Below, piece after piece: positions 21,388-47,817 of a stretch of 64,000 nucleotides of DNA (within the stretch, counting starts at the first letter, position 1; every line of letters begins with the position of its first letter). The DNA is from a phage. The position numbers and the translations under genes were made by a program. The stretch lies in the sequence record PZ445431.1; one strand, given 5' to 3'. The notes under the pieces were generated by a model. That model saw nothing but the letters and a program-made list of their open reading frames with translations, was not told the DNA's origin and searched no databases.

Positions 21388-21810
21388 ATGAGTACAGAAA
21401 ACCGAGTTATTGATATTGTTGTTGATGAGAAAGTACCTTATGGTCTTATCATGCAGTTTATGGATGTTGATGACAGTGTATATCCACCAACAGAAGTTCC
21501 TGTTAACTTAACCGGATATTCACTCCGAGGAACTATTAAATCTAGTTTAGATGAGAACGCCGAGGTTCTAGCTAATTTTAAAACTTATGTTATTGATGCT
21601 GCTCAAGGTGCTGCTGCAATTAGTCTTTCCATTGCAGACGTTACTAATATTGGTGAAAAAGCATCTAAAGAACGTGATAAGTATAACCCAAGACAACGTT
21701 TTGCTGGTTATTATGATATCCTAATGACTCGTGATGTAATTGGCTCTGAAGTCAATTCTTTCCGTATTATGGAAGGTAAAGTATACATCAGCGATGGAGT
21801 AACTCAATAA
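21388..21810 (+). CDS. collar protein (p132-like)
   Basis: 140-aa ORF between central fibre and side fibre genes. Confidence 0.45.
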
Positions 21811-24512
21811 TGGCACTTAAAACTAAAATTATTGTACAGCAGATTCTGAACATAGATGACACTACAACTACTGCTAGTAAATATCCTAAGTATACAGTAG
21901 TTTTAGGTACTTCTATTAGTTCTATTACTGCTAGTGAACTAACAGGGGCTGTTGAGGCCTCTGCTGCTTCTGCTGCAGCAGCAAAAGATTCTGAAATTGC
22001 AGCAAAAGAATCTGAAACAAATGCTAAGGACTCGGAGAACCTAGCTGCAATTTACGCTAACTCTTCAGAAACTTCTGCAACTCAATCTGCTGCTTCTGCT
22101 ACTGAAGCGGAGAGACAAGCTAGTTTATCTAAAGATAGTGCTGATGCCTCTGCTACGTCAGCTGAGGAATCCAAAGGATTCCGTGATTCTGCTGAACTTG
22201 CTGCACAAAATGCTGAACAGAGTCGTCTATTAGCTGAACAAGCTAAGAAGGACGCTGAGGCTGCTAAGACTGCTGCTGCTACTTCTGAGCAAAATGCTGC
22301 TACATCTGCTACTGAATCTACTAATCAGGCTACTGCTGCTACTGGTTCTGCTACAAAGGCGGGAGAATACGCTACCGCTGCAAAAGATTCCGAGATAGCG
22401 GCTAAGACTTCAGAACTTAATGCTAAGGATTCTGAGCATGAATCTGCTATTTCTGCTGGAGCTTCTGAAGCTTCTGCTTCTCAATCTGCTATTTCTGCTA
22501 CTCAATCTGCTGCGTCTGCTACTAAATCTGCAGAATCATCAGCTGCGGCAAAAACTAGTGAAACTAATGCTATAGAATCATCAGCTGCAGCAAAAACTAG
22601 TGAAACTAATGCAAAAACTAGTGAGACTAACGCAAAAACTAGTGAAACTAATGCAGCAGCATATGCAGCAGCAGCAAAAACTAGCGAGACTAATGCTGCT
22701 GATTCTGCTGCCTCTGCTTCTGACTCCAAAGGATTCAGGGATGAAGCAGAAGCATTCGCTGCACAAGCCTCCACATCAGCATTAGCAGCAAAAAACTCAG
22801 AAACTAGTACAAAGACTAGCGAAACTAACTCAAAAGCTAGTGAAGCCGCCGCTAAGCTAGCTCAGCAGGATGCATCAGATAGCGCGAACATAGCTACGCA
22901 AGCGATGACCACAACCAAAAGCTATAGGGACGAAGCAGAGGGATTTAAAAATACCGCCACTACTGCTGCAACGACGGCAACAGAAAAGGCCCTAGAGGCC
23001 GCTAGTAGCGCTACAACGGCAGGTGAGAAAGCTGTTGCAGCAAGTAGTTCAGCTGACAGAGCTGAGACAGCGGCTGCATCCGCAGAGCAGGTTACGCAAG
23101 CGTCATTGAAGAAGGATCAGAACTTAGCAGACCTAACAAACAAAGAGTTAGCGCGAGAAGCGTTGCAAGTCGAGACAGTAAAACGCGCAAACGCAGGGCA
23201 GCCAGGAGGGTATTCTGCCTTTCAGTCACCCACTACGGCCTATGAGATGCGCATTGCTAACGATGGGGGCTGGCGAGTAGTTAGCAATATTGATAATGGT
23301 AAAACTATGCCGTTGTTGGTGGATTACGGAGGCACAGGAGCATTGAATGCAGCGGATGCGCGCACTAATCTGGCACTTAATCGTTTTTCACAAGCTGACA
23401 GCTCGCAGACCTATGTTTTTTCTGGCGATGGTACTAAAAAGCTATTCATTGATGACGCAGGAACGTGGGGCGTGTGGAATAACAGTATCGATGTGCCTAT
23501 CGCTCTTCCAATTTATAGTGGTGGCACAGGAGCTGTGAACATAAATGATGCGCGGGCTAACTTAGGGATAGGCTTATTCGGCAACGACACCCAATTCACT
23601 ACGATGACAGACCCATCAAATAAGTATCAGGTATTTGTTAGGGATACAGGCGATTGGGGATGTGTTAGCCCTGGATCATCTCGCGCAGCCCTCCCCATTA
23701 TTTCTGGCGGTACTGGTGCAACTGATGCAGCTGGGGCCGCGCGCTCTCTTAAAGTTATGGGTGACGGGCTACCAGACAATCGACTAGATGCACCTTATCT
23801 TTCAAGCGGAGTATACTACGCGGGCGATGATTCTTATGTGGGGGGATCTGGTAAACCTTTCAATTACACTCAAATTCTGAATTTAGCCGAACAAAATGGT
23901 AATGTTGGTAACTGGACTCAACTGGGATTTTCTATTCTTTCAAACACCGCACCTGTGATACGTAGGCGTAATGCTTACCCCGCATTGCTTTCTGACTGGT
24001 CTACCTTTGTTGTGAAAGGCTTAAATGCTACAATCGACACTAATGGGTTTTATAAATCCGCGTCTCCTATCGTTAAATTAAAAGGAGATGGTTCCATAGA
24101 AACTAATAGTGAATCGGAAGGAGCTACCTCCAGTCGTCTGGAAAAAGGAGTCTATATAATTTCCGGGGTTCTTGGGTTTAACTCTAATCCTGAATGGGGT
24201 GGTGTAGATGGTGGATTTGTTATTCCCACAAATAATAACGGTTTACCTTTACTGTGGGTAGATTATGAAATCAGTGCGCAAGGTGACATTCTTATAAAGA
24301 CATATCACAGGGTGCATGAAAACGTTCCACCTTTTGCAAAAAATACAATACAGGGAGTTAATAACGGAGATCCCATTGATATTCCTTCTGGACGTTGGAT
24401 AGATTTAAGGGTTGAAATGCCAGCCGATAGTATTTATAACAAAGCCATGGAAGAAGCTCGTACCCCCTATGAGAAAGCAGAAAAGGAAAGGTTAGATCTT
24501 GAAGAAAAATAA
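21810..24512 (+). CDS. side (L-shaped) tail fibre protein
   Basis: 900 aa; Ala/Ser/Thr-rich N-terminal half with AKTSETN heptad repeats; three GGTGA-N-DAR-NLG repeats in C-terminal half. Confidence 0.7.
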   Translation: MALKTKIIVQQILNIDDTTTTASKYPKYTVVLGTSISSITASELTGAVEASAASAAAAKDSEIAAKESETNAKDSENLAAIYANSSETSATQSAASATEAERQASLSKDSADASATSAEESKGFRDSAELAAQNAEQSRLLAEQAKKDAEAAKTAAATSEQNAATSATESTNQATAATGSATKAGEYATAAKDSEIAAKTSELNAKDSEHESAISAGASEASASQSAISATQSAASATKSAESSAAAKTSETNAIESSAAAKTSETNAKTSETNAKTSETNAAAYAAAAKTSETNAADSAASASDSKGFRDEAEAFAAQASTSALAAKNSETSTKTSETNSKASEAAAKLAQQDASDSANIATQAMTTTKSYRDEAEGFKNTATTAATTATEKALEAASSATTAGEKAVAASSSADRAETAAASAEQVTQASLKKDQNLADLTNKELAREALQVETVKRANAGQPGGYSAFQSPTTAYEMRIANDGGWRVVSNIDNGKTMPLLVDYGGTGALNAADARTNLALNRFSQADSSQTYVFSGDGTKKLFIDDAGTWGVWNNSIDVPIALPIYSGGTGAVNINDARANLGIGLFGNDTQFTTMTDPSNKYQVFVRDTGDWGCVSPGSSRAALPIISGGTGATDAAGAARSLKVMGDGLPDNRLDAPYLSSGVYYAGDDSYVGGSGKPFNYTQILNLAEQNGNVGNWTQLGFSILSNTAPVIRRRNAYPALLSDWSTFVVKGLNATIDTNGFYKSASPIVKLKGDGSIETNSESEGATSSRLEKGVYIISGVLGFNSNPEWGGVDGGFVIPTNNNGLPLLWVDYEISAQGDILIKTYHRVHENVPPFAKNTIQGVNNGDPIDIPSGRWIDLRVEMPADSIYNKAMEEARTPYEKAEKERLDLEEK
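22548..22694 (+). repeat. in-frame 21-bp tandem repeat (GCAAAAACTAGTGAAACTAAT, AKTSETN) inside tail fibre gene
   Basis: five near-identical 21-bp units visible in sequence, three directly adjacent. Confidence 0.8.
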
Positions 24513-43798: not shown

Positions 43799-44083
43799 TT
43801 ATGATTCTTTGAGCAAAGAAGCAAGTTCAGCATAGACTTTATCTAACTCAAAGCCAATGCGAAGAGACACACGAGTCTTCCGTTGTTTAAGTAACCACTC
43901 GGATATGTTAGGGATGCCAGCTAATCTATGCGGTACCACCCTACATAGCTTTTCCGCAGTATCGTAAACAGAAGTTTTACGTTCTTTTACTGGGAACTTC
44001 CTTGTTTCCCACTTTTTATTCTTCGCTGTCATTTCTAGCCCCCAATTCAGCAAGAGCTTCCTCATGCATCTGACGTTCTTCAT
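43799..44083 (-). CDS. hypothetical protein
   Basis: 94-aa basic ORF overlapping 3' end of upstream gene; start uncertain. Confidence 0.25.
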   Translation of the reverse strand: MKNVRCMRKLLLNWGLEMTAKNKKWETRKFPVKERKTSVYDTAEKLCRVVPHRLAGIPNISEWLLKQRKTRVSLRIGFELDKVYAELASLLKES

Positions 44084-46928
44084 CTGTCATAAACTTAACT
44101 GGAATCGGCATACATTCGATCTTACAGTAAGTTCTGTACCAGTCCACAATCTTTTCCGTATCCAGATCTTTACCGATACCCATCATGCCAAGATACATAC
44201 GAGCATATTTTGGGTTAGCGCTCTGACCTGTCTTAAGGAAGAAATCCTTCTTCTTATTCTTAAGAGCTTCGATAAACGGTTTGATTGTTACGTTTGAACA
44301 CTTTTTAATATCTTCCCAGAACATGTCGTGCATCTTATGGAAGAATGCAGCTCTATCGTTTGGTTTATCCTTAATATACTGTTCAACGTGTTCCACTATT
44401 ACATCTTTAATAGAATCCAGATGATAATAGCGAACCAGAAGTAACTTGGCTTCATAGGCATCTGCATGACGTGGTGCGCAATATTCAGGAGTTGAGTGCA
44501 AAATAGCTTTGATTCGCTCTTCTATATACTCGTTGCCTGCACCTTCGATAGTTCCCCAGCTTTCGCTGAAAATATCGATAGTTGCACCCTGATCAAGCAG
44601 ATAATAACGCAAAGTACTAGTATAGTTTCTAGATTCCAGCTCACGACGACGTGCGTACAGTTGTTGGGCTAACTCAATCCAACCTTCGTCAATATTATAT
44701 TGCTCGGAACCCGCAGAAAATCCACTCGTAGATTTATCAATAAAATAATAAATGTTCTGAGCACCACGGTCGCGCCTGATTGCTTGGAAACGCATGTTTG
44801 GCGCTTGGTTTGAGGTTCTAGTGATTACGAATACGTTATCAAAATAGTTAAAGTCAACACCACTCGTTACAGATGGACTACATAATAAACAATCAATCTG
44901 TTGATCAATTAGCTCATTAGTTGTATAATCCAGAATACGTCGGATATCTACATCAGACGTAGAGTTTGAGTGAATTTCTTTAACTAACGCACCAGTATTA
45001 CGACGTAATGCCATTCCCTTCTCATTCAGTTCATCAGGGCCACAATCAGATACTAGGATTGATTTCTCCCCCATCTCTAAAGATGTTTGAAGTGCAACCC
45101 AAATACTGGATTCATCAGGGAATTCATAAGCATGAGCTTTTGCCAGCATTTTACGGTGATGATTATAGAACGCAACCGGTTTATCAAAATCAATCAAAGA
45201 ACCATAGGCTTCAATCGTTTCTGCACTGATATCCCCATCAGATAAGATCACCGTTTTTGCAGTAATAAGAATATCACGAAGAACCTGAATACATTCACGA
45301 CGGTTTTTAACAACCGGAGCGAATAACAGATCATTCATTACTGCGTCACATTCATCAATAAAGATCGTATCAATCTGACCCACAAAGCTCTTGAACTTAT
45401 GTATAGAGTGAATAGTTGAAGACATACGATCAATAGCACCACGTTTGAAGTTCAGCATATCAACTGACTTATCATACTGGCCAGCACCGAATTTCTTCGC
45501 GTTAGAAGATACAAGTGCCCTAGTATTTGTGATTGCAATAAAGTTTCCTGGAAGAACACCTGCATCTAGCCACTTAGTTACTGCGGTAGTTTTACCCGTA
45601 CCAAGACTTGCCTTAACAAATGTTAAATGTCCTTTTGGTGGTACAATATTAATTTTCAGGTATGGAACTTCTGGTGGAGAATCTGTGTCTAGACGTTTTA
45701 ATGGTACACCTTTTAAGTTTGGTGGAATCTCACGTTTGGAGTTATTTACAAAGGCTTTGAGAGCCTGCTTACGACCGTTATTAAAGTAATCTTGAATATT
45801 ACGACTATTATCCTTAGTTGCAATATATTCAGATAAGGCTGGTTTAATCTCACGTTCCAACCACGTAAAATCAACACCATCTTCTAACGCTCTGTGATAA
45901 AGTTTTGGGATAATACGCAGGTACACTCCATCCTCAGCTTCTTCTAGTTCGCTGATGGTTTCTTCCACTTTATCAGATGCAGCCTTCTTACCTTTAATTT
46001 GGTCAAGTAAGGAGTAGAATTCTTCTTTGAACTCGCCTCTAGTTGTCTCAAAGTCAACTAGGTTATTAGGTAGATTCACCTTCGAACCCTTAACGTACAC
46101 AAGACGTGGTTTATTCTCCGCTTTAAACGGATCGACTATACCATCATCAAATAAGGGATCTGCGAAATAGTGAAGCTGAACAGAAGAATAATAAGCTAAG
46201 TCAGCAATATCAAAGCCATACTTTTGCTTACTACTGTCATTGATAGATGTAAATAAGAACTTTAACTGTCCCTGCGTTACCTTGACATTAGATTCTAGCA
46301 TTAAGTGCATTCGGATACCTAGTTTTAGGCCAGCCGAAGACGATGCATGAGCAATAAACCCTGCATCAAGAGGGAACATATCCTCACTAATACTATTCAA
46401 CATCTTAATAATATGACGTGCCATGCCAACAAGATTAAACTTGTCATAGCCACCAGTATCTACAATACCATCCACGTCCATAGCAATAATATGACTAGGA
46501 TTGGATACGTTAAAGTTTCCTCTGGTACGACGCACATTATCTTTTGGAGCTAGACATTTACCACGAATAGCTACAATATGCGGGTCTTTGGTAAGACGAC
46601 GCATGATAGGTAACATTTCAGCAAGGTTTTGCGGGTCAAGTTCTTCAAGTACGTCAAATTTGAAGGGCATGGAAGCTGGTTTACCTTCTGGATGCTCTTT
46701 AGAGAATCGCTTTGCAAAGGTGTAATCTTCCACTTTGATCTCTTTCCAGATGCCAGTGGCTTTATCTCTGGAAAATCCTGCGTGACCTTGTAGGATTGAG
46801 AACACAACAATACTCCTATGTTGGTTATTCGAATATCTTTCTTTAGGACTATTCAAAAGAATAGAACAACTATTACTACCATTTACACAAACATTAATCA
46901 TCATCAAGCAGTATGAATAAGTTATCAT
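44016..46928 (-). CDS. large P-loop NTPase, putative replication origin-binding / helicase-like protein
   Basis: Walker A ASLGTGKTT and Walker B IFIDECDAV; up to 970 aa; N-terminal ~60 codons look non-coding and no SD at first ATG, so true start probably downstream. Confidence 0.5.
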   Translation of the reverse strand: MITYSYCLMMINVCVNGSNSCSILLNSPKERYSNNQHRSIVVFSILQGHAGFSRDKATGIWKEIKVEDYTFAKRFSKEHPEGKPASMPFKFDVLEELDPQNLAEMLPIMRRLTKDPHIVAIRGKCLAPKDNVRRTRGNFNVSNPSHIIAMDVDGIVDTGGYDKFNLVGMARHIIKMLNSISEDMFPLDAGFIAHASSSAGLKLGIRMHLMLESNVKVTQGQLKFLFTSINDSSKQKYGFDIADLAYYSSVQLHYFADPLFDDGIVDPFKAENKPRLVYVKGSKVNLPNNLVDFETTRGEFKEEFYSLLDQIKGKKAASDKVEETISELEEAEDGVYLRIIPKLYHRALEDGVDFTWLEREIKPALSEYIATKDNSRNIQDYFNNGRKQALKAFVNNSKREIPPNLKGVPLKRLDTDSPPEVPYLKINIVPPKGHLTFVKASLGTGKTTAVTKWLDAGVLPGNFIAITNTRALVSSNAKKFGAGQYDKSVDMLNFKRGAIDRMSSTIHSIHKFKSFVGQIDTIFIDECDAVMNDLLFAPVVKNRRECIQVLRDILITAKTVILSDGDISAETIEAYGSLIDFDKPVAFYNHHRKMLAKAHAYEFPDESSIWVALQTSLEMGEKSILVSDCGPDELNEKGMALRRNTGALVKEIHSNSTSDVDIRRILDYTTNELIDQQIDCLLCSPSVTSGVDFNYFDNVFVITRTSNQAPNMRFQAIRRDRGAQNIYYFIDKSTSGFSAGSEQYNIDEGWIELAQQLYARRRELESRNYTSTLRYYLLDQGATIDIFSESWGTIEGAGNEYIEERIKAILHSTPEYCAPRHADAYEAKLLLVRYYHLDSIKDVIVEHVEQYIKDKPNDRAAFFHKMHDMFWEDIKKCSNVTIKPFIEALKNKKKDFFLKTGQSANPKYARMYLGMMGIGKDLDTEKIVDWYRTYCKIECMPIPVKFMTDEERQMHEEALAELGARNDSEE

Positions 46929-47301
46929 ACCTCAGTGCTGCGCTCTCTTAACTCTTATCCAGATCAGAACCTAGGTCATTGGCCGCTAAGCCGATTCTGA
47001 TTGCCCTCACTATCCTATTGGTAGGTGGCTACTGGACGTGTCACCATTCGCTGCTCTTTTCGTTCGCACCCCCATATAAAGCTCTGCCTATATAACGAGC
47101 TAAATATGCACGGTTTGGATTTACCTTTCCGAATTCAGGGTACGCAGATCACTTAATTGATAATTAACTAATGCAGTATAAACACTAGTAATAGTTAAAA
47201 CAACCCTTAATGGGGCAGCCTAACTGTTCCGTATTGCGGATTGTAAACAAGAAAAATTAGCAAAATCAATTTTTACTAATGTCTCTCAATTCAATATAAA
47301 T

Positions 47302-47331
47302 ATTATATCAAGATTTTGAGCATCCTGCAAG
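47302..47331 (-). promoter_or_regulatory. T5-type early promoter
   Basis: minus strand CTTGCA - 18 nt - TATAAT. Confidence 0.45.
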
Positions 47332-47421
47332 TAAAATTTTTCCGAAGGTGCTATCAGTGTCCTTGAGCACAGAGAAAACCGAGTCATTTTGACTCGGTAA
47401 TCAGGATTGAGCTAATGAAAA

Positions 47422-47817
47422 TCAATCATCATTTAGGCCTGGGACATAGATTCCAATGCGATTTAATTGACCTTTAGCTTCTTCGAGAATATCTTCGGTG
47501 TACTCCCAAATATCATCTTCTACTTGCAAAAGATAAGGGGATTCACCAGTTTCGGGGTCACGTGTAATGGCTAAGCCACGTGGATGGAATATAGAGAAGT
47601 TGAGGGCAACAATCAAGCCCATACTGGACAATTCATTCCAGTCAGCTTCCCAACCATCATCTTCATCTTCGTCCACAAAGACACCTACACTAGGGTCTGT
47701 TACAGAAGTAAACGGAAATGTTACACTAACCTTGTCAACCCCCAACCAACGTGCAAGGAGCCCTTCAGCACGCTCTACCAAACTAGGATCTATCTGACGC
47801 CAAAATACTTGTTCCAT
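47422..47817 (-). CDS. hypothetical protein, tandem paralog B
   Basis: 131 aa; shares W-E-W-EL-MGL-ALN...TGE-P...QV...W-Y-E...L-R-G...PGL pattern with adjacent ORF. Confidence 0.4.
   Translation of the reverse strand: MEQVFWRQIDPSLVERAEGLLARWLGVDKVSVTFPFTSVTDPSVGVFVDEDEDDGWEADWNELSSMGLIVALNFSIFHPRGLAITRDPETGESPYLLQVEDDIWEYTEDILEEAKGQLNRIGIYVPGLNDD

What the first reader, a model, noticed from the sequence alone, without database searches (positions are those of the whole stretch)
46929..47420. ~490 bp non-coding leader fed by an early promoter, upstream of the large origin-binding-like ATPase gene
A promoter at 47302-47331 (minus strand) fires into ~330 nt containing no ORF of 60 aa or more on either strand before the large P-loop ATPase gene. 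The stretch is unusually long for this compact genome, has an AT-rich part (47150-47220) and GC-richer parts with short inverted repeats. It could be a structured 5' UTR, a small RNA, or, given the neighbouring gene, a replication origin.
Basis: partly seen in the sequence, partly recalled or inferred. Interest (0 to 1): 0.5.

Follow-up and report, generated by a model that had tools for sequence, protein, structure and literature searches.

The report
Ornate structured RNA before T5 helicase
The long "empty" stretch in front of the replication helicase gene of this T5-like phage encodes a previously undescribed, intricately folded RNA of about 330 nucleotides, kept in shape by evolution across T5 relatives, whose job is still unknown.

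Summary
The helicase gene (T5 D2 homologue) starts at GTG 46805, not ATG 46928, so 46806-47421 (616 bp, minus strand) is non-coding.

Anatomy:
- terminator of the upstream operon
- conserved T5-type early promoter, 47330-47302
- 5' hairpin
- invariant small hairpin motif
- 329-nt module, 47196-46868, closed by a ~45-bp AU-rich stem around a GC-richer multi-helix core

This is a structured RNA. Across T5-like phages the module is swapped as a cassette: 60% identity in the core against 99% in the leader. Its length stays at 319-337 nt and every helix keeps pairing. On 22 sequences, 99.5% of cells pair and 24 of 35 pairs show compensatory changes (0/500 shuffles; slid controls 36-47%). Only the transcribed strand folds well.

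One hairpin loop, UUAGCG, is invariant in all lineages, including the Providencia and Proteus phages.

There is no Rfam match, no tRNA, no conserved ORF, no iterons and no GC-skew switch.

The best reading is a new RNA family embedded in the leader of the replication-helicase operon. It is probably released or bracketed by RNase III and read by a partner at the invariant loop. An origin role is neither supported nor excluded. No description was found in the literature searched.

The parts
47378..47398 (-). Intrinsic terminator of the upstream operon (ACCGAGTCA-AAA-TGACTCGGT followed by TTTTCT).
   Evidence: Conserved with loop changes in relatives. Annotated as a terminator in HdH2 and Lindwurm.
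47302..47342 (-). T5-type early promoter. A/T-rich upstream tract at 47331-47342; -35 TTGCAG at 47325-47330; 17-nt spacer; extended -10 TGaTATAAT at 47302-47310. Predicted start site about 47295-47297.
   Evidence: Sequence. Conserved in 30+ relatives. Equivalent promoters are annotated in AKFV33. T5 promoter consensus from PMC3326045. The start site is inferred, not measured.
47249..47287 (-). 5'-proximal hairpin, AUUAGUAAAA / UUUUGCUAAU inside GAGAGA / UUUUUC, about -12 kcal/mol, followed by a U-run. Possible attenuator or 5' stabiliser.
   Evidence: fold. Annotated as a terminator in Stitch. A different hairpin occupies the same place in My1-like, L048, Sugarland and PR1. A G-to-A change turns U-G into U-A in L037 and phiR201.
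47212..47237 (-). Invariant motif GCAAUACGGAACAGUUAGGCUGCCCC, containing a mini-hairpin CAGU-NNG-GCUG at 47216-47226.
   Evidence: Identical in types A and B. Only the triloop varies in phiR201, My1-like, L048 and Sugarland.
46868..47196 (-). The 329-nt structured RNA module. Long AU-rich basal stem: 5' strand 47196-~47150, 3' strand ~46908-46868. It encloses P1, the P2 three-way junction, P3, P4, P5, the HL domain and P6.
   Evidence: Inverted repeat I1. Length is 319-337 nt in all types.
47142..47147 (-). P1 5' strand CUGCGU. It pairs with 46938-46943 (GCGCAG) and closes the core.
   Evidence: Six variants, all 6/6 paired; 5 of 6 positions change on both sides. Columns 58-63 with 277-282.
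47068..47141 (-). P2 domain. P2 is ACCCU (47141-47137) with GGGGU (47072-47068). It closes a three-way junction with a GGUAA-loop hairpin and the 12-bp hairpin P2b (47108-47073).
   Evidence: P2 has seven variants, all 5/5 paired; 4 of 5 positions are compensatory. P2b differs between the window and phiR201 but still pairs. Columns 64-68 with 133-137.
46958..47037 (-). P4 domain. P4 is UCCAG (47036-47032) with CUGGA (46962-46958). It encloses a P5 hairpin and the HL domain.
   Evidence: P4 is present at equivalent positions in all six types. Within type A, UCCAG/CUGGA changes to UACAG/CUGUA.
46963..47001 (-). HL domain. Helix AUCAGAAUC (47001-46993) with GGUUCUGAU (46971-46963). Inner hairpin GGC-UUAGCG-GCC (46992-46981) with an invariant hexaloop. 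3' bulge AAUGACCUA (46980-46972).
   Evidence: The outer helix differs in every type and always pairs; 7 of 7 positions are compensatory. Columns 219-256. A descriptor scan finds it upstream of D2 in every lineage, including PR1 and Stubb.
46911..46930 (-). P6 hairpin GUAUGA-UAACUUAU-UCAUAC, between P1 and the 3' strand of the basal stem.
   Evidence: Eight variants; 5 of 6 positions are compensatory. The loop is GUUGCCA in types B, My1-like and L048.
46849..46864 (-). Small hairpin CUAUUC-UUUU-GAAUAG downstream of the module. No U-run follows, so no terminator is predicted before the gene.
   Evidence: Equivalent hairpins occur in Sugarland, L048 and My1-like.
46803..46817 (-). Translation start of the helicase gene: AGGAG (46817-46813), a 7-nt spacer, and GUG (46805-46803).
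   Evidence: Annotated start in TrudiRoth, Stitch, HdH2, Lindwurm, DT57C and others. Conserved in the alignment.
44016..46805 (-). Downstream gene: a 929-aa homologue of the T5 D2 bipolar SF2 helicase, annotated as 'replication origin binding protein'. It is the first gene of an operon that runs to terminators near 41.9 kb.
   Evidence: Pfam Herpes_ori_bp hit at residues 391-533. PHROG 3712. Weak match to herpes origin-binding-protein structures. PMC3632103. Terminators.

Best explanation
The stretch encodes an independently folding structured RNA of about 330 nt, a new family. It sits inside the ~490-nt 5' leader of the operon that begins with the D2 replication helicase.

Shown:
- Selection acts on the fold of the transcribed strand.
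- The fold is a long AU-rich basal duplex closing a core of at least eight helices: P1, a P2 three-way junction, P3, P4, P5, the HL domain and P6.
- One hexaloop, UUAGCG, is invariant, and an invariant small hairpin lies just upstream.
- The module is exchanged between phages as a cassette whose ends coincide with the basal stem.

Inferred:
- Host RNA polymerase makes it early, from the strong T5-type promoter.
- With no terminator before the gene, it is made as one transcript with D2.
- The ~45-bp basal duplex is the kind of substrate RNase III cuts, as in the stems that bracket rRNAs or the T7 early sites. Cleavage would release a compact ~300-nt RNA and give the D2 message a new 5' end.
- The invariant loop and hairpin are read by a partner, a protein or another RNA.

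My commitment: it is an RNA-level element that sets or accompanies expression of the replication-helicase operon through processing, stability or access to the start site. It is not a protein gene and not a DNA repeat-type origin.
For: Covariation.
- RNAalifold on an ordinary MAFFT alignment of 22 distinct sequences recovers the basal stem, P1, P2 and both HL helices. 29 of 41 predicted pairs show a change on both sides.
- For the 35 pairs of those helices, 99.5% of cells pair and 24 pairs are compensatory. The covariation score is 0.466 against 0.226 in shuffles (0/500 reach it). Sliding the 3' partner by 1-3 columns drops pairing to 36-47% and leaves 3-6 compensatory pairs.
- Hand-located helices P1, P2, P2b, P4, HL and P6 pair fully in six sequence types at equivalent positions. 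Swapping partners between types drops pairing to 40-74%.

Strand. Mean minimum free energy is -94.5 for the sense strand against -68.0 for the antisense strand in type A, and -97.9 against -76.6 in type B. About 15% of paired cells are G-U.

Thermodynamics. z = -4.9.

Architecture kept while sequence is lost.
- Module length is 319-337 nt.
- The position of the CUUAGCGG motif (zero-based offset) is 241-251 in all types.
- The core is 54-66% identical where the leader is 99% and the D2 DNA is 82-86%.

The HL motif is found in Markadamsvirinae, Sugarland-like, My1-like, Priunavirus-like and Novosibvirus phages.

Not coding. No ORF of 60 aa or more; the candidate ORFs are not conserved; indels occur among close relatives.

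Transcription context. The terminator and promoter are conserved. No terminator lies before D2. The operon ends near 41.9 kb.
Against: - No transcript, processing site or partner has been observed. RNase III cleavage, release of a stable RNA and any regulatory effect are inferences.
- The pairing between the 5' motif (GCAAUAC) and the spacer between the ribosome-binding site and GUG (GUAUUGU), seen in types A and B, is broken in phiR201 and L027 and absent in L048 and Sugarland. A simple start-site-masking model is therefore not supported across the family.
- In Proteus phage Stubb a near-consensus promoter lies between the element and D2, and about 250 nt separate them. In PR1 about 170 nt separate them. 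The element therefore does not need to be part of the D2 message.
- About 330 nt and more than eight helices is more than known leaders of this type usually need.
Confidence: 0.55

Rival explanations
1. It is a stand-alone trans-acting non-coding RNA, or the RNA part of a ribonucleoprotein. It is merely co-transcribed with D2 in T5-like phages. After excision it acts elsewhere, for example as a cofactor or scaffold of the replication machinery, a decoy for a host nuclease or defence sensor, or a sponge.
For: - Its size and ornateness, its constant length and its invariant loop resemble ribozyme- or RNP-type RNAs.
- The basal stem brackets the module the way processing stalks bracket rRNAs.
- The module is swapped as a self-contained cassette without co-change of D2.
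- Stubb has its own promoter for D2 downstream of the element.
- Aeromonas phage TS3 has two CUUAGCGG hairpins in a 1.6-kb non-coding stretch that ends with a strong terminator ~90 nt before D2.
Against: - It shows strict synteny and the same orientation directly upstream of D2 in every lineage examined.
- No terminator lies between it and D2 in T5-like phages.
- No 8-nt complement of the invariant loop exists elsewhere in the 64-kb window.
- No partner is known.
Confidence: 0.25
2. It marks an internal replication origin that works through its transcript, in the manner of ColE1 RNA II or the T7 and T4 promoter-plus-AT-rich origins. The early promoter fires into AT-rich DNA, the folded RNA helps form or process a primer or R-loop, and the neighbouring D2 helicase is loaded there.
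For: - It lies next to the presumed initiator gene, as origins often do. D2 is the UL9-like helicase proposed to act in initiation, and T5 uses multiple internal origins that have never been mapped in sequence (PMC3632103).
- A strong promoter is followed by a ~60-nt stretch that is very AT-rich by eye in the sequence (not computed).
- RNA folding matters for primer formation in ColE1 (established knowledge).
- The 140-nt leader is 99% identical between phages whose coding DNA differs by 15%.
Against: - There are no iterons or direct repeats.
- There is no GC-skew inflection at 47 kb; the skew follows transcription direction.
- T7- and T4-type origins need no conserved RNA fold.
- There is no experimental origin mapping.
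Confidence: 0.12
3. It is a DNA-level element: a cruciform, or protein-binding inverted repeats of a double-stranded origin or regulatory site.
For: A 21-nt inverted repeat with 287 nt between the arms, next to an 'origin binding protein' gene.
Against: - The antisense strand folds 21-26 kcal/mol worse. A cruciform needs both strands to fold.
- About 15% of pairs are G-U, which become A-C mismatches on the other strand.
- Internal helices P1, P2, P4, HL and P6 covary, which DNA binding sites would not require.
Confidence: 0.03
4. It is protein-coding: either an N-terminal extension of the helicase from ATG 46928, or small ORFs such as those annotated in some database records.
For: - An in-frame ORF runs from 46928.
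- Small ORFs are annotated here in PMBT26, mar004NP2, Stubb and D153.
Against: - 1-nt indels among close relatives between 46806 and 46928.
- ATG 46928 lies in the P6 stem, whose changes are compensatory rather than synonymous.
- The 60-65-aa ORFs start with TTG, lack a ribosome-binding site and are unrelated between types.
- The 33-aa ORF loses its ATG in HdH2 and others.
Confidence: 0.02

Closest known systems
P4 CI RNA and P1/P7 C4 RNA: small RNAs processed out of the leader of a replication or antirepressor operon
   Same: - A stable structured RNA is made from the 5' leader of an operon. In P4 that operon's key gene is a helicase-primase-origin-binding protein, and the RNA acts back on the same leader.
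- Here the invariant loop (UUAGCGG) is complementary to UUGCUAA in the 3' strand of the 5' hairpin in types A, B, My1-like and L048. This was read by eye in the sequences.
   Different: - No sequence or structure match: the Rfam scan, which includes the C4 family, gives nothing.
- This RNA is about four times larger.
- The loop-leader complementarity is broken in phiR201 and L037 and absent in Sugarland, so the analogy is only a lead.
RNase III processing stalks: rRNA precursor stems, T7 early-mRNA sites and the lambda N leader
   Same: A long, near-perfect RNA duplex (~45 bp with G-U pairs and small bulges) brackets a folded RNA in a phage early transcript made by host polymerase.
   Different: Cleavage has not been shown. 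T7 sites are short hairpins between genes and do not enclose a 240-nt conserved core.
Large ornate RNAs of unknown function found in phages and prophages (GOLLD, ROOL)
   Same: A large, multi-helix, strongly covarying RNA carried by phages, with no known function.
   Different: - No Rfam match to these or any other family, even at E up to 10.
- It is smaller (330 nt against ~580-800).
- It sits in an mRNA leader next to a replication gene rather than near tRNA genes.
ColE1 RNA II and the T7 and T4 transcript-primed origins
   Same: A promoter fires into AT-rich DNA next to replication genes. In ColE1 the fold of the transcript decides primer formation.
   Different: No evidence of initiation here. 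No antisense regulator or RNase H-type site was identified. T7 and T4 origins lack a conserved RNA fold.
Riboswitches and protein-binding mRNA leaders (T-box, ribosomal-protein leaders, T4 gene 32 and gene 43 operators)
   Same: A conserved structured 5' leader immediately upstream of the regulated gene.
   Different: - No match to any riboswitch or leader family.
- No conserved expression platform: neither a terminator nor a conserved start-site-masking helix.
- It is larger than known classes.

Membership tests
Any Rfam 15 family, including C4/CI RNA, GOLLD, ROOL, riboswitches, RNase P, tmRNA, 6S, group I/II introns and small ribozymes | A covariance-model match at or near the family's gathering score | tested here: not met
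   - Whole window at gathering thresholds: 0 matches.
- 46700-47500 at E up to 10: 0 matches.
- Eight related loci at E up to 1: only two terminator-like spurious hits far below threshold.
tRNA, tmRNA or tRNA-like gene | A cloverleaf detected by ARAGORN | tested here: not met
   0 genes in the window.
Structured functional RNA (generic) | Base pairs maintained by compensatory substitutions beyond controls | tested here: met
   99.5% of cells paired; 24 of 35 pairs compensatory; 0/500 shuffles reach the observed values; slid controls 36-47%. 29 of 41 pairs compensatory in an unsupervised RNAalifold run.
Structured functional RNA (generic) | The fold is specific to the transcribed strand | tested here: met
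   Sense strand against antisense strand: -94.5 vs -68.0 and -97.9 vs -76.6 kcal/mol. About 15% G-U pairs.
Structured functional RNA (generic) | The region is transcribed | not testable with these tools
   Only a conserved promoter upstream and the absence of a terminator are seen. No expression data were found in the literature searches.
Iteron-type replication origin (lambda, P4, plasmid rep-ori modules) | Several direct repeats (initiator binding sites) next to an AT-rich unwinding element | tested here: not met
   The only direct repeats are two-copy chance matches of 9-20 nt, 156-656 nt apart.
Replication origin (any type) | Initiation of DNA synthesis at this site, or a compositional-skew switch | tested here: inconclusive
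   There is no skew switch at 47 kb. The switches at ~25 and ~54 kb follow gene orientation. Skew is a poor origin marker in phages, and initiation cannot be tested here.
RNase III processing site | About 20 bp or more of uninterrupted or near-perfect RNA duplex | tested here: met
   The basal stem is ~45 bp with G-U pairs and small bulges in types A and B. A long basal stem is also predicted in phiR201, My1-like, L048 and PR1.
RNase III processing site | Cleavage in vivo or in vitro that depends on rnc | not testable with these tools
   No data.
Riboswitch or attenuator leader | A conserved expression platform, meaning a terminator/antiterminator or a helix masking the ribosome-binding site, coupled to the sensor fold | tested here: not met
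   - No terminator between the module and the gene.
- The 5'-motif to start-region pairing seen in types A and B is not kept in phiR201, L027, L048 or Sugarland (sequences).
Protein-coding gene | A conserved open frame with start signals; substitutions and indels that respect the frame | tested here: not met

The most novel reading that the evidence does not exclude
The RNA is a dedicated partner of replication initiation in Demerecviridae. Either it is the transcript that defines T5's long-sought internal origin, as a folded primer or R-loop RNA onto which the D2 helicase is loaded, or it is an RNA subunit or cofactor of the D2 initiator that recognises the invariant UUAGCG loop. This would be an RNA-guided or RNA-scaffolded start of phage DNA replication with no described counterpart among tailed phages that use the host polymerase.
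Probability: 0.15. Interest if true: 0.85.

Novelty: new variant of a known kind. Interest (0 to 1): 0.66.

Why it matters
T5 has been a model phage for seventy years, yet this element is unannotated or mis-annotated in hundreds of deposited genomes. Some records carry spurious small ORFs here, and some extend the helicase gene upstream.

It is one of the larger and better-supported structured RNAs in a virulent coliphage. It sits at the head of the replication operon, next to the presumed initiator helicase of a phage whose origins have never been located in sequence.

It offers several things:
- a tractable system (E. coli K-12 host, existing T5 and BASEL-collection phages, CRISPR-assisted editing) for finding what a new ornate RNA does
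- natural 'allele swaps' of the whole module between phages, which are ready-made specificity experiments
- a concrete candidate to test when mapping T5 replication initiation

If it turns out to be only a processing or stability element, it still corrects gene-start and ORF annotation across the family.

Tried and rejected
- Rfam and ARAGORN: nothing found.
- Iterons and GC skew as origin marks: nothing found.
- Start-site masking by the 5' motif: predicted in types A and B but not conserved, so rejected as a family-wide mechanism.
- Resemblances read by eye and dropped because they are not conserved across types:
  - P3 of type B (GGAGU-GAAAA-ACUCC) resembles lambda boxB.
  - UGCUAAU resembles boxA.
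  - AGAAGUGA...GUAGC resembles part of 5S rRNA. There is also no 5S Rfam hit.
- Loop-loop contacts of the P6 loop with the P2a or P2b loops: several alternatives fit by eye. With only six or seven independent types they cannot be told apart, so none is claimed.
- Structure-aware alignment: mafft-qinsi is not installed. My own profile aligner gave a poor merged consensus. Helices were therefore located per type and counted and cross-checked with the tool on a plain MAFFT alignment.
- Covariance model: not built. The full module exceeds the size the tool's documentation says it will calibrate, and the MAFFT sub-alignment put homologous helices in shifted columns.
- Metagenome scan for the two motifs: only type B and Sugarland-type copies plus chance hits, with no new types. 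The IMG/VR scans gave 35 + 6 loci.
- Vibrio T5-like phages: a 0.65-1.1-kb non-coding stretch lies at the same place, but there is no UUAGCG loop and no folding signal. My shuffle z-scores were -0.5 and +1.7, and a coding control gave -2.2, so that test has little power. Homology is not claimed. An earlier z-score script timed out.
- Second CTTAGCGG in the window (22849-22856): antisense inside a 900-aa ORF, and expected by chance.
- Literature: six searches found no description of this element. Rad, the T5 anti-retron factor, is a protein in the tRNA region and is unrelated.

Full report
**Source and setting.** The window matches Escherichia phage TrudiRoth (Epseptimavirus, Demerecviridae) at 100% over the region, and 500+ T5-like genomes at 80-100%. 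Genes here lie on the minus strand.

The large gene downstream is the homologue of T5 D2. D2 is an SF2 helicase with both unwinding polarities. It is annotated 'replication origin binding protein' because of a weak similarity to herpesvirus UL9 (PMC3632103). T5's origins have not been located in sequence; that paper cites only electron-microscopic evidence for multiple internal origins.

**Checking the observation.**
- A 9-bp terminator of the upstream operon precedes it at 47398-47378.
- No ORF of 60 aa or more exists in the stretch.
- The gene start is GTG 46805, with AGGAG 7 nt upstream, as annotated in TrudiRoth, Stitch, HdH2, Lindwurm, DT57C and others.
Close relatives differ by single-base indels between 46806 and 46928.
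- The non-coding gap is therefore 616 bp, and the leader from the predicted start site is ~490 nt.
- The leader folds far better than shuffles: -141.5 against -114.2 +/- 5.6 kcal/mol, z = -4.9.

**What the comparison shows.** I aligned the intergenic region of 12 and then 32 distinct T5-like phages.
- The flanks are nearly invariant.
- The central ~330 nt come in sharply different versions. I call them type A (window, T5), type B (DT57C, Lindwurm and others) and type E (Yersinia phiR201).
- Further versions occur in Pectobacterium My1-like, L048, Klebsiella Sugarland-like, Providencia PR1-like and Proteus Stubb phages.
- Against a type B phage, the window is 99% identical in the 140-nt leader, 60% in the core, 85% in the 62-nt tail and 82% in the first 600 nt of D2.
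- The break-points coincide with the two arms of a long inverted repeat, 47196-47176 and 46888-46868.
- Despite this turnover, the module length is 329 nt in all 18 type A sequences, 330-332 in type B, 337 in E, 325 in L048 and 319 in My1-like.
- The 8-mer CUUAGCGG sits at zero-based offset 241-251 from the upstream motif in every type.

**Structure.**
- RNAalifold within types A and B gives the same plan: a ~45-bp AU-rich basal stem, a closing helix P1, and a multi-helix core.
- Across types I located the helices at equivalent positions:
  - P1
  - P2, closing a three-way junction with a GGUAA-loop hairpin and a long hairpin P2b
  - P3
  - a conserved junction GAGAAGUG
  - P4, enclosing a P5 hairpin and the HL domain
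  - P6
- Every variant pairs fully, or with a single mismatch.
- Most positions change on both sides: P1 5/6, P2 4/5, HL outer helix 7/7, P6 5/6, outer basal stem 5/9.
- Pairing a 5' strand with the 3' strand of another type drops pairing to 40-74%.

As a check free of my own choices, the tool's RNAalifold run on a plain MAFFT alignment of 22 sequences recovered the basal stem, P1, P2 and both HL helices, with 29 of 41 pairs compensatory. Counting those 35 pairs gave:
- 99.5% of cells paired
- 24 compensatory pairs
- covariation score 0.466
- none of these reached in 500 column shuffles
- pairing of 36-47% when the partner is slid by 1-3 columns

**RNA, not DNA.** The sense strand folds 21-26 kcal/mol better than its complement, and about 15% of paired cells are G-U. 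These would be A-C mismatches on the other strand. That excludes a symmetrical cruciform and points to the transcript. The displaced non-template DNA strand has the same sequence and cannot be formally excluded.

**Invariant features.**
- The HL domain is a helix that differs in every lineage. It holds a short hairpin with the loop UUAGCG and a 7-10-nt bulge on the 3' side. It is present upstream of D2 in all Markadamsvirinae types, and in Sugarland-like, My1-like, PR1-like and Stubb phages.
- Only 7.8% of random contexts around the 8-mer satisfy the helix rule.
- Aeromonas phage TS3 has two CUUAGCGG hairpins in its 1.6-kb non-coding stretch before D2.
- A second invariant element, GAACAGU-NN-GGCUGC, forms a 4-bp hairpin just upstream of the basal stem.
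- A 5'-proximal hairpin of varying sequence follows the start site in every lineage.

**What it is not.**
- No Rfam family matches, even at E = 10.
- There is no tRNA.
- There are no iterons.
- There is no GC-skew switch.
- There is no conserved ORF.
- No paper in six searches describes it.

**How it probably works.**

Shown: selection preserves an elaborate fold of the transcribed strand, one loop and one small hairpin, directly upstream of D2 in the same orientation.

Inferred:
- Host polymerase transcribes it early from the strong promoter.
- No terminator precedes D2, and the operon runs to terminators near 41.9 kb, so in T5-like phages it is the 5' leader of the replication-helicase message.
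- The long basal duplex is a textbook RNase III substrate. Cleavage would free the ~300-nt core and re-define the 5' end of the D2 message.
- The invariant loop and hairpin are recognition sites for a partner.

I therefore favour an RNA-level element that sets or accompanies expression of the replication operon (confidence about 0.55). That it is a selected RNA structure at all I put at about 0.95.

The main rival (0.25) is that the excised RNA acts in trans. This is suggested by its ornateness, by cassette exchange without co-change of D2, and by Stubb, PR1 and TS3, where promoters, spacers or a terminator separate it from D2.

A transcript-dependent origin (0.12) remains possible because of the neighbour gene and the unexplained 99% identity of the leader, but no test here supports it.

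**Limits.**
- Helices in types E, My1-like, L048 and Sugarland were placed by hand at homologous positions, which gives some freedom. The unsupervised run covers only five helices.
- The region between P3 and P4 and any tertiary contacts are unresolved.
- Homology of the Vibrio regions is not shown, and my z-score control had little power.
- All statements about transcription, processing and function are inferences.

Noticed in passing
L007 740-1192 (S132), L005 316-768 (AKFV33), L011 316-768 (8sent1748). Insertion point corresponds to window ~47335-47375.: A free-standing HNH homing-endonuclease gene is inserted between the upstream terminator and the RNA in some phages of types A and B. It brings its own T5-type promoter, which replaces the one at 47330-47302. 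Co-conversion around this site may explain why the adjacent leader is so uniform.
   Followed up: partly
L008 766-861 (atrejo); also L009, L027, L029, L044, L067. Insertion point corresponds to window ~47255.: A 96-nt optional module sits between the 5' hairpin and the invariant motif. It is flanked by the direct repeat TTTTTCTT and folds at -22 kcal/mol. It is single-copy, found in 51 phage records in the search (all examined cases are at this locus), and occurs in types A, B and E. It could be an extra RNA domain or the footprint of a small mobile element.
   Followed up: partly
window 47197-47336 compared with L006 and L025: The 140 nt from the promoter to the basal stem are 99% identical between phages whose D2 coding DNA is 82-86% identical. 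This is tighter than coding sequence and is unexplained.
   Followed up: no
L003, L010, L014, L065, L068 (database annotations): Deposited genomes annotate spurious small ORFs inside the RNA (PMBT26, mar004NP2, D153, Stubb, whose annotators noted 'low gene density' and 'inverted repeat'). Some also start the helicase gene upstream of the true GTG (HMD-P3, PMBT26).
   Followed up: yes
L064 431-1531 (Vibrio JSF10), L066 19-1608 (Aeromonas TS3), L063 and L065: Distant Demerecviridae carry even longer unannotated stretches (0.65-1.6 kb) directly upstream of the D2 homologue. In JSF10 the stretch is more GC-rich than the gene (0.47 against 0.41). In TS3 and D153 it ends in terminators ~90-100 nt before the gene. 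Whether these are related RNAs is open.
   Followed up: partly
window 47240-47269 (minus strand): A second promoter-like site (TTGATT, 18 nt, TACAAT) overlaps the 5' hairpin and is invariant. The 96-nt insertion separates its two hexamers in some phages, so it is probably not needed as a promoter.
   Followed up: partly
window 22849-22856 (minus strand): A second CTTAGCGG with a 6-bp flanking helix. It is antisense inside a 900-aa ORF (21810-24512) and is consistent with chance.
   Followed up: yes
window 47422-47817 (minus strand): The gene just upstream of the terminator encodes a 131-aa protein with two DUF7415 repeats. Its function is unknown.
   Followed up: no
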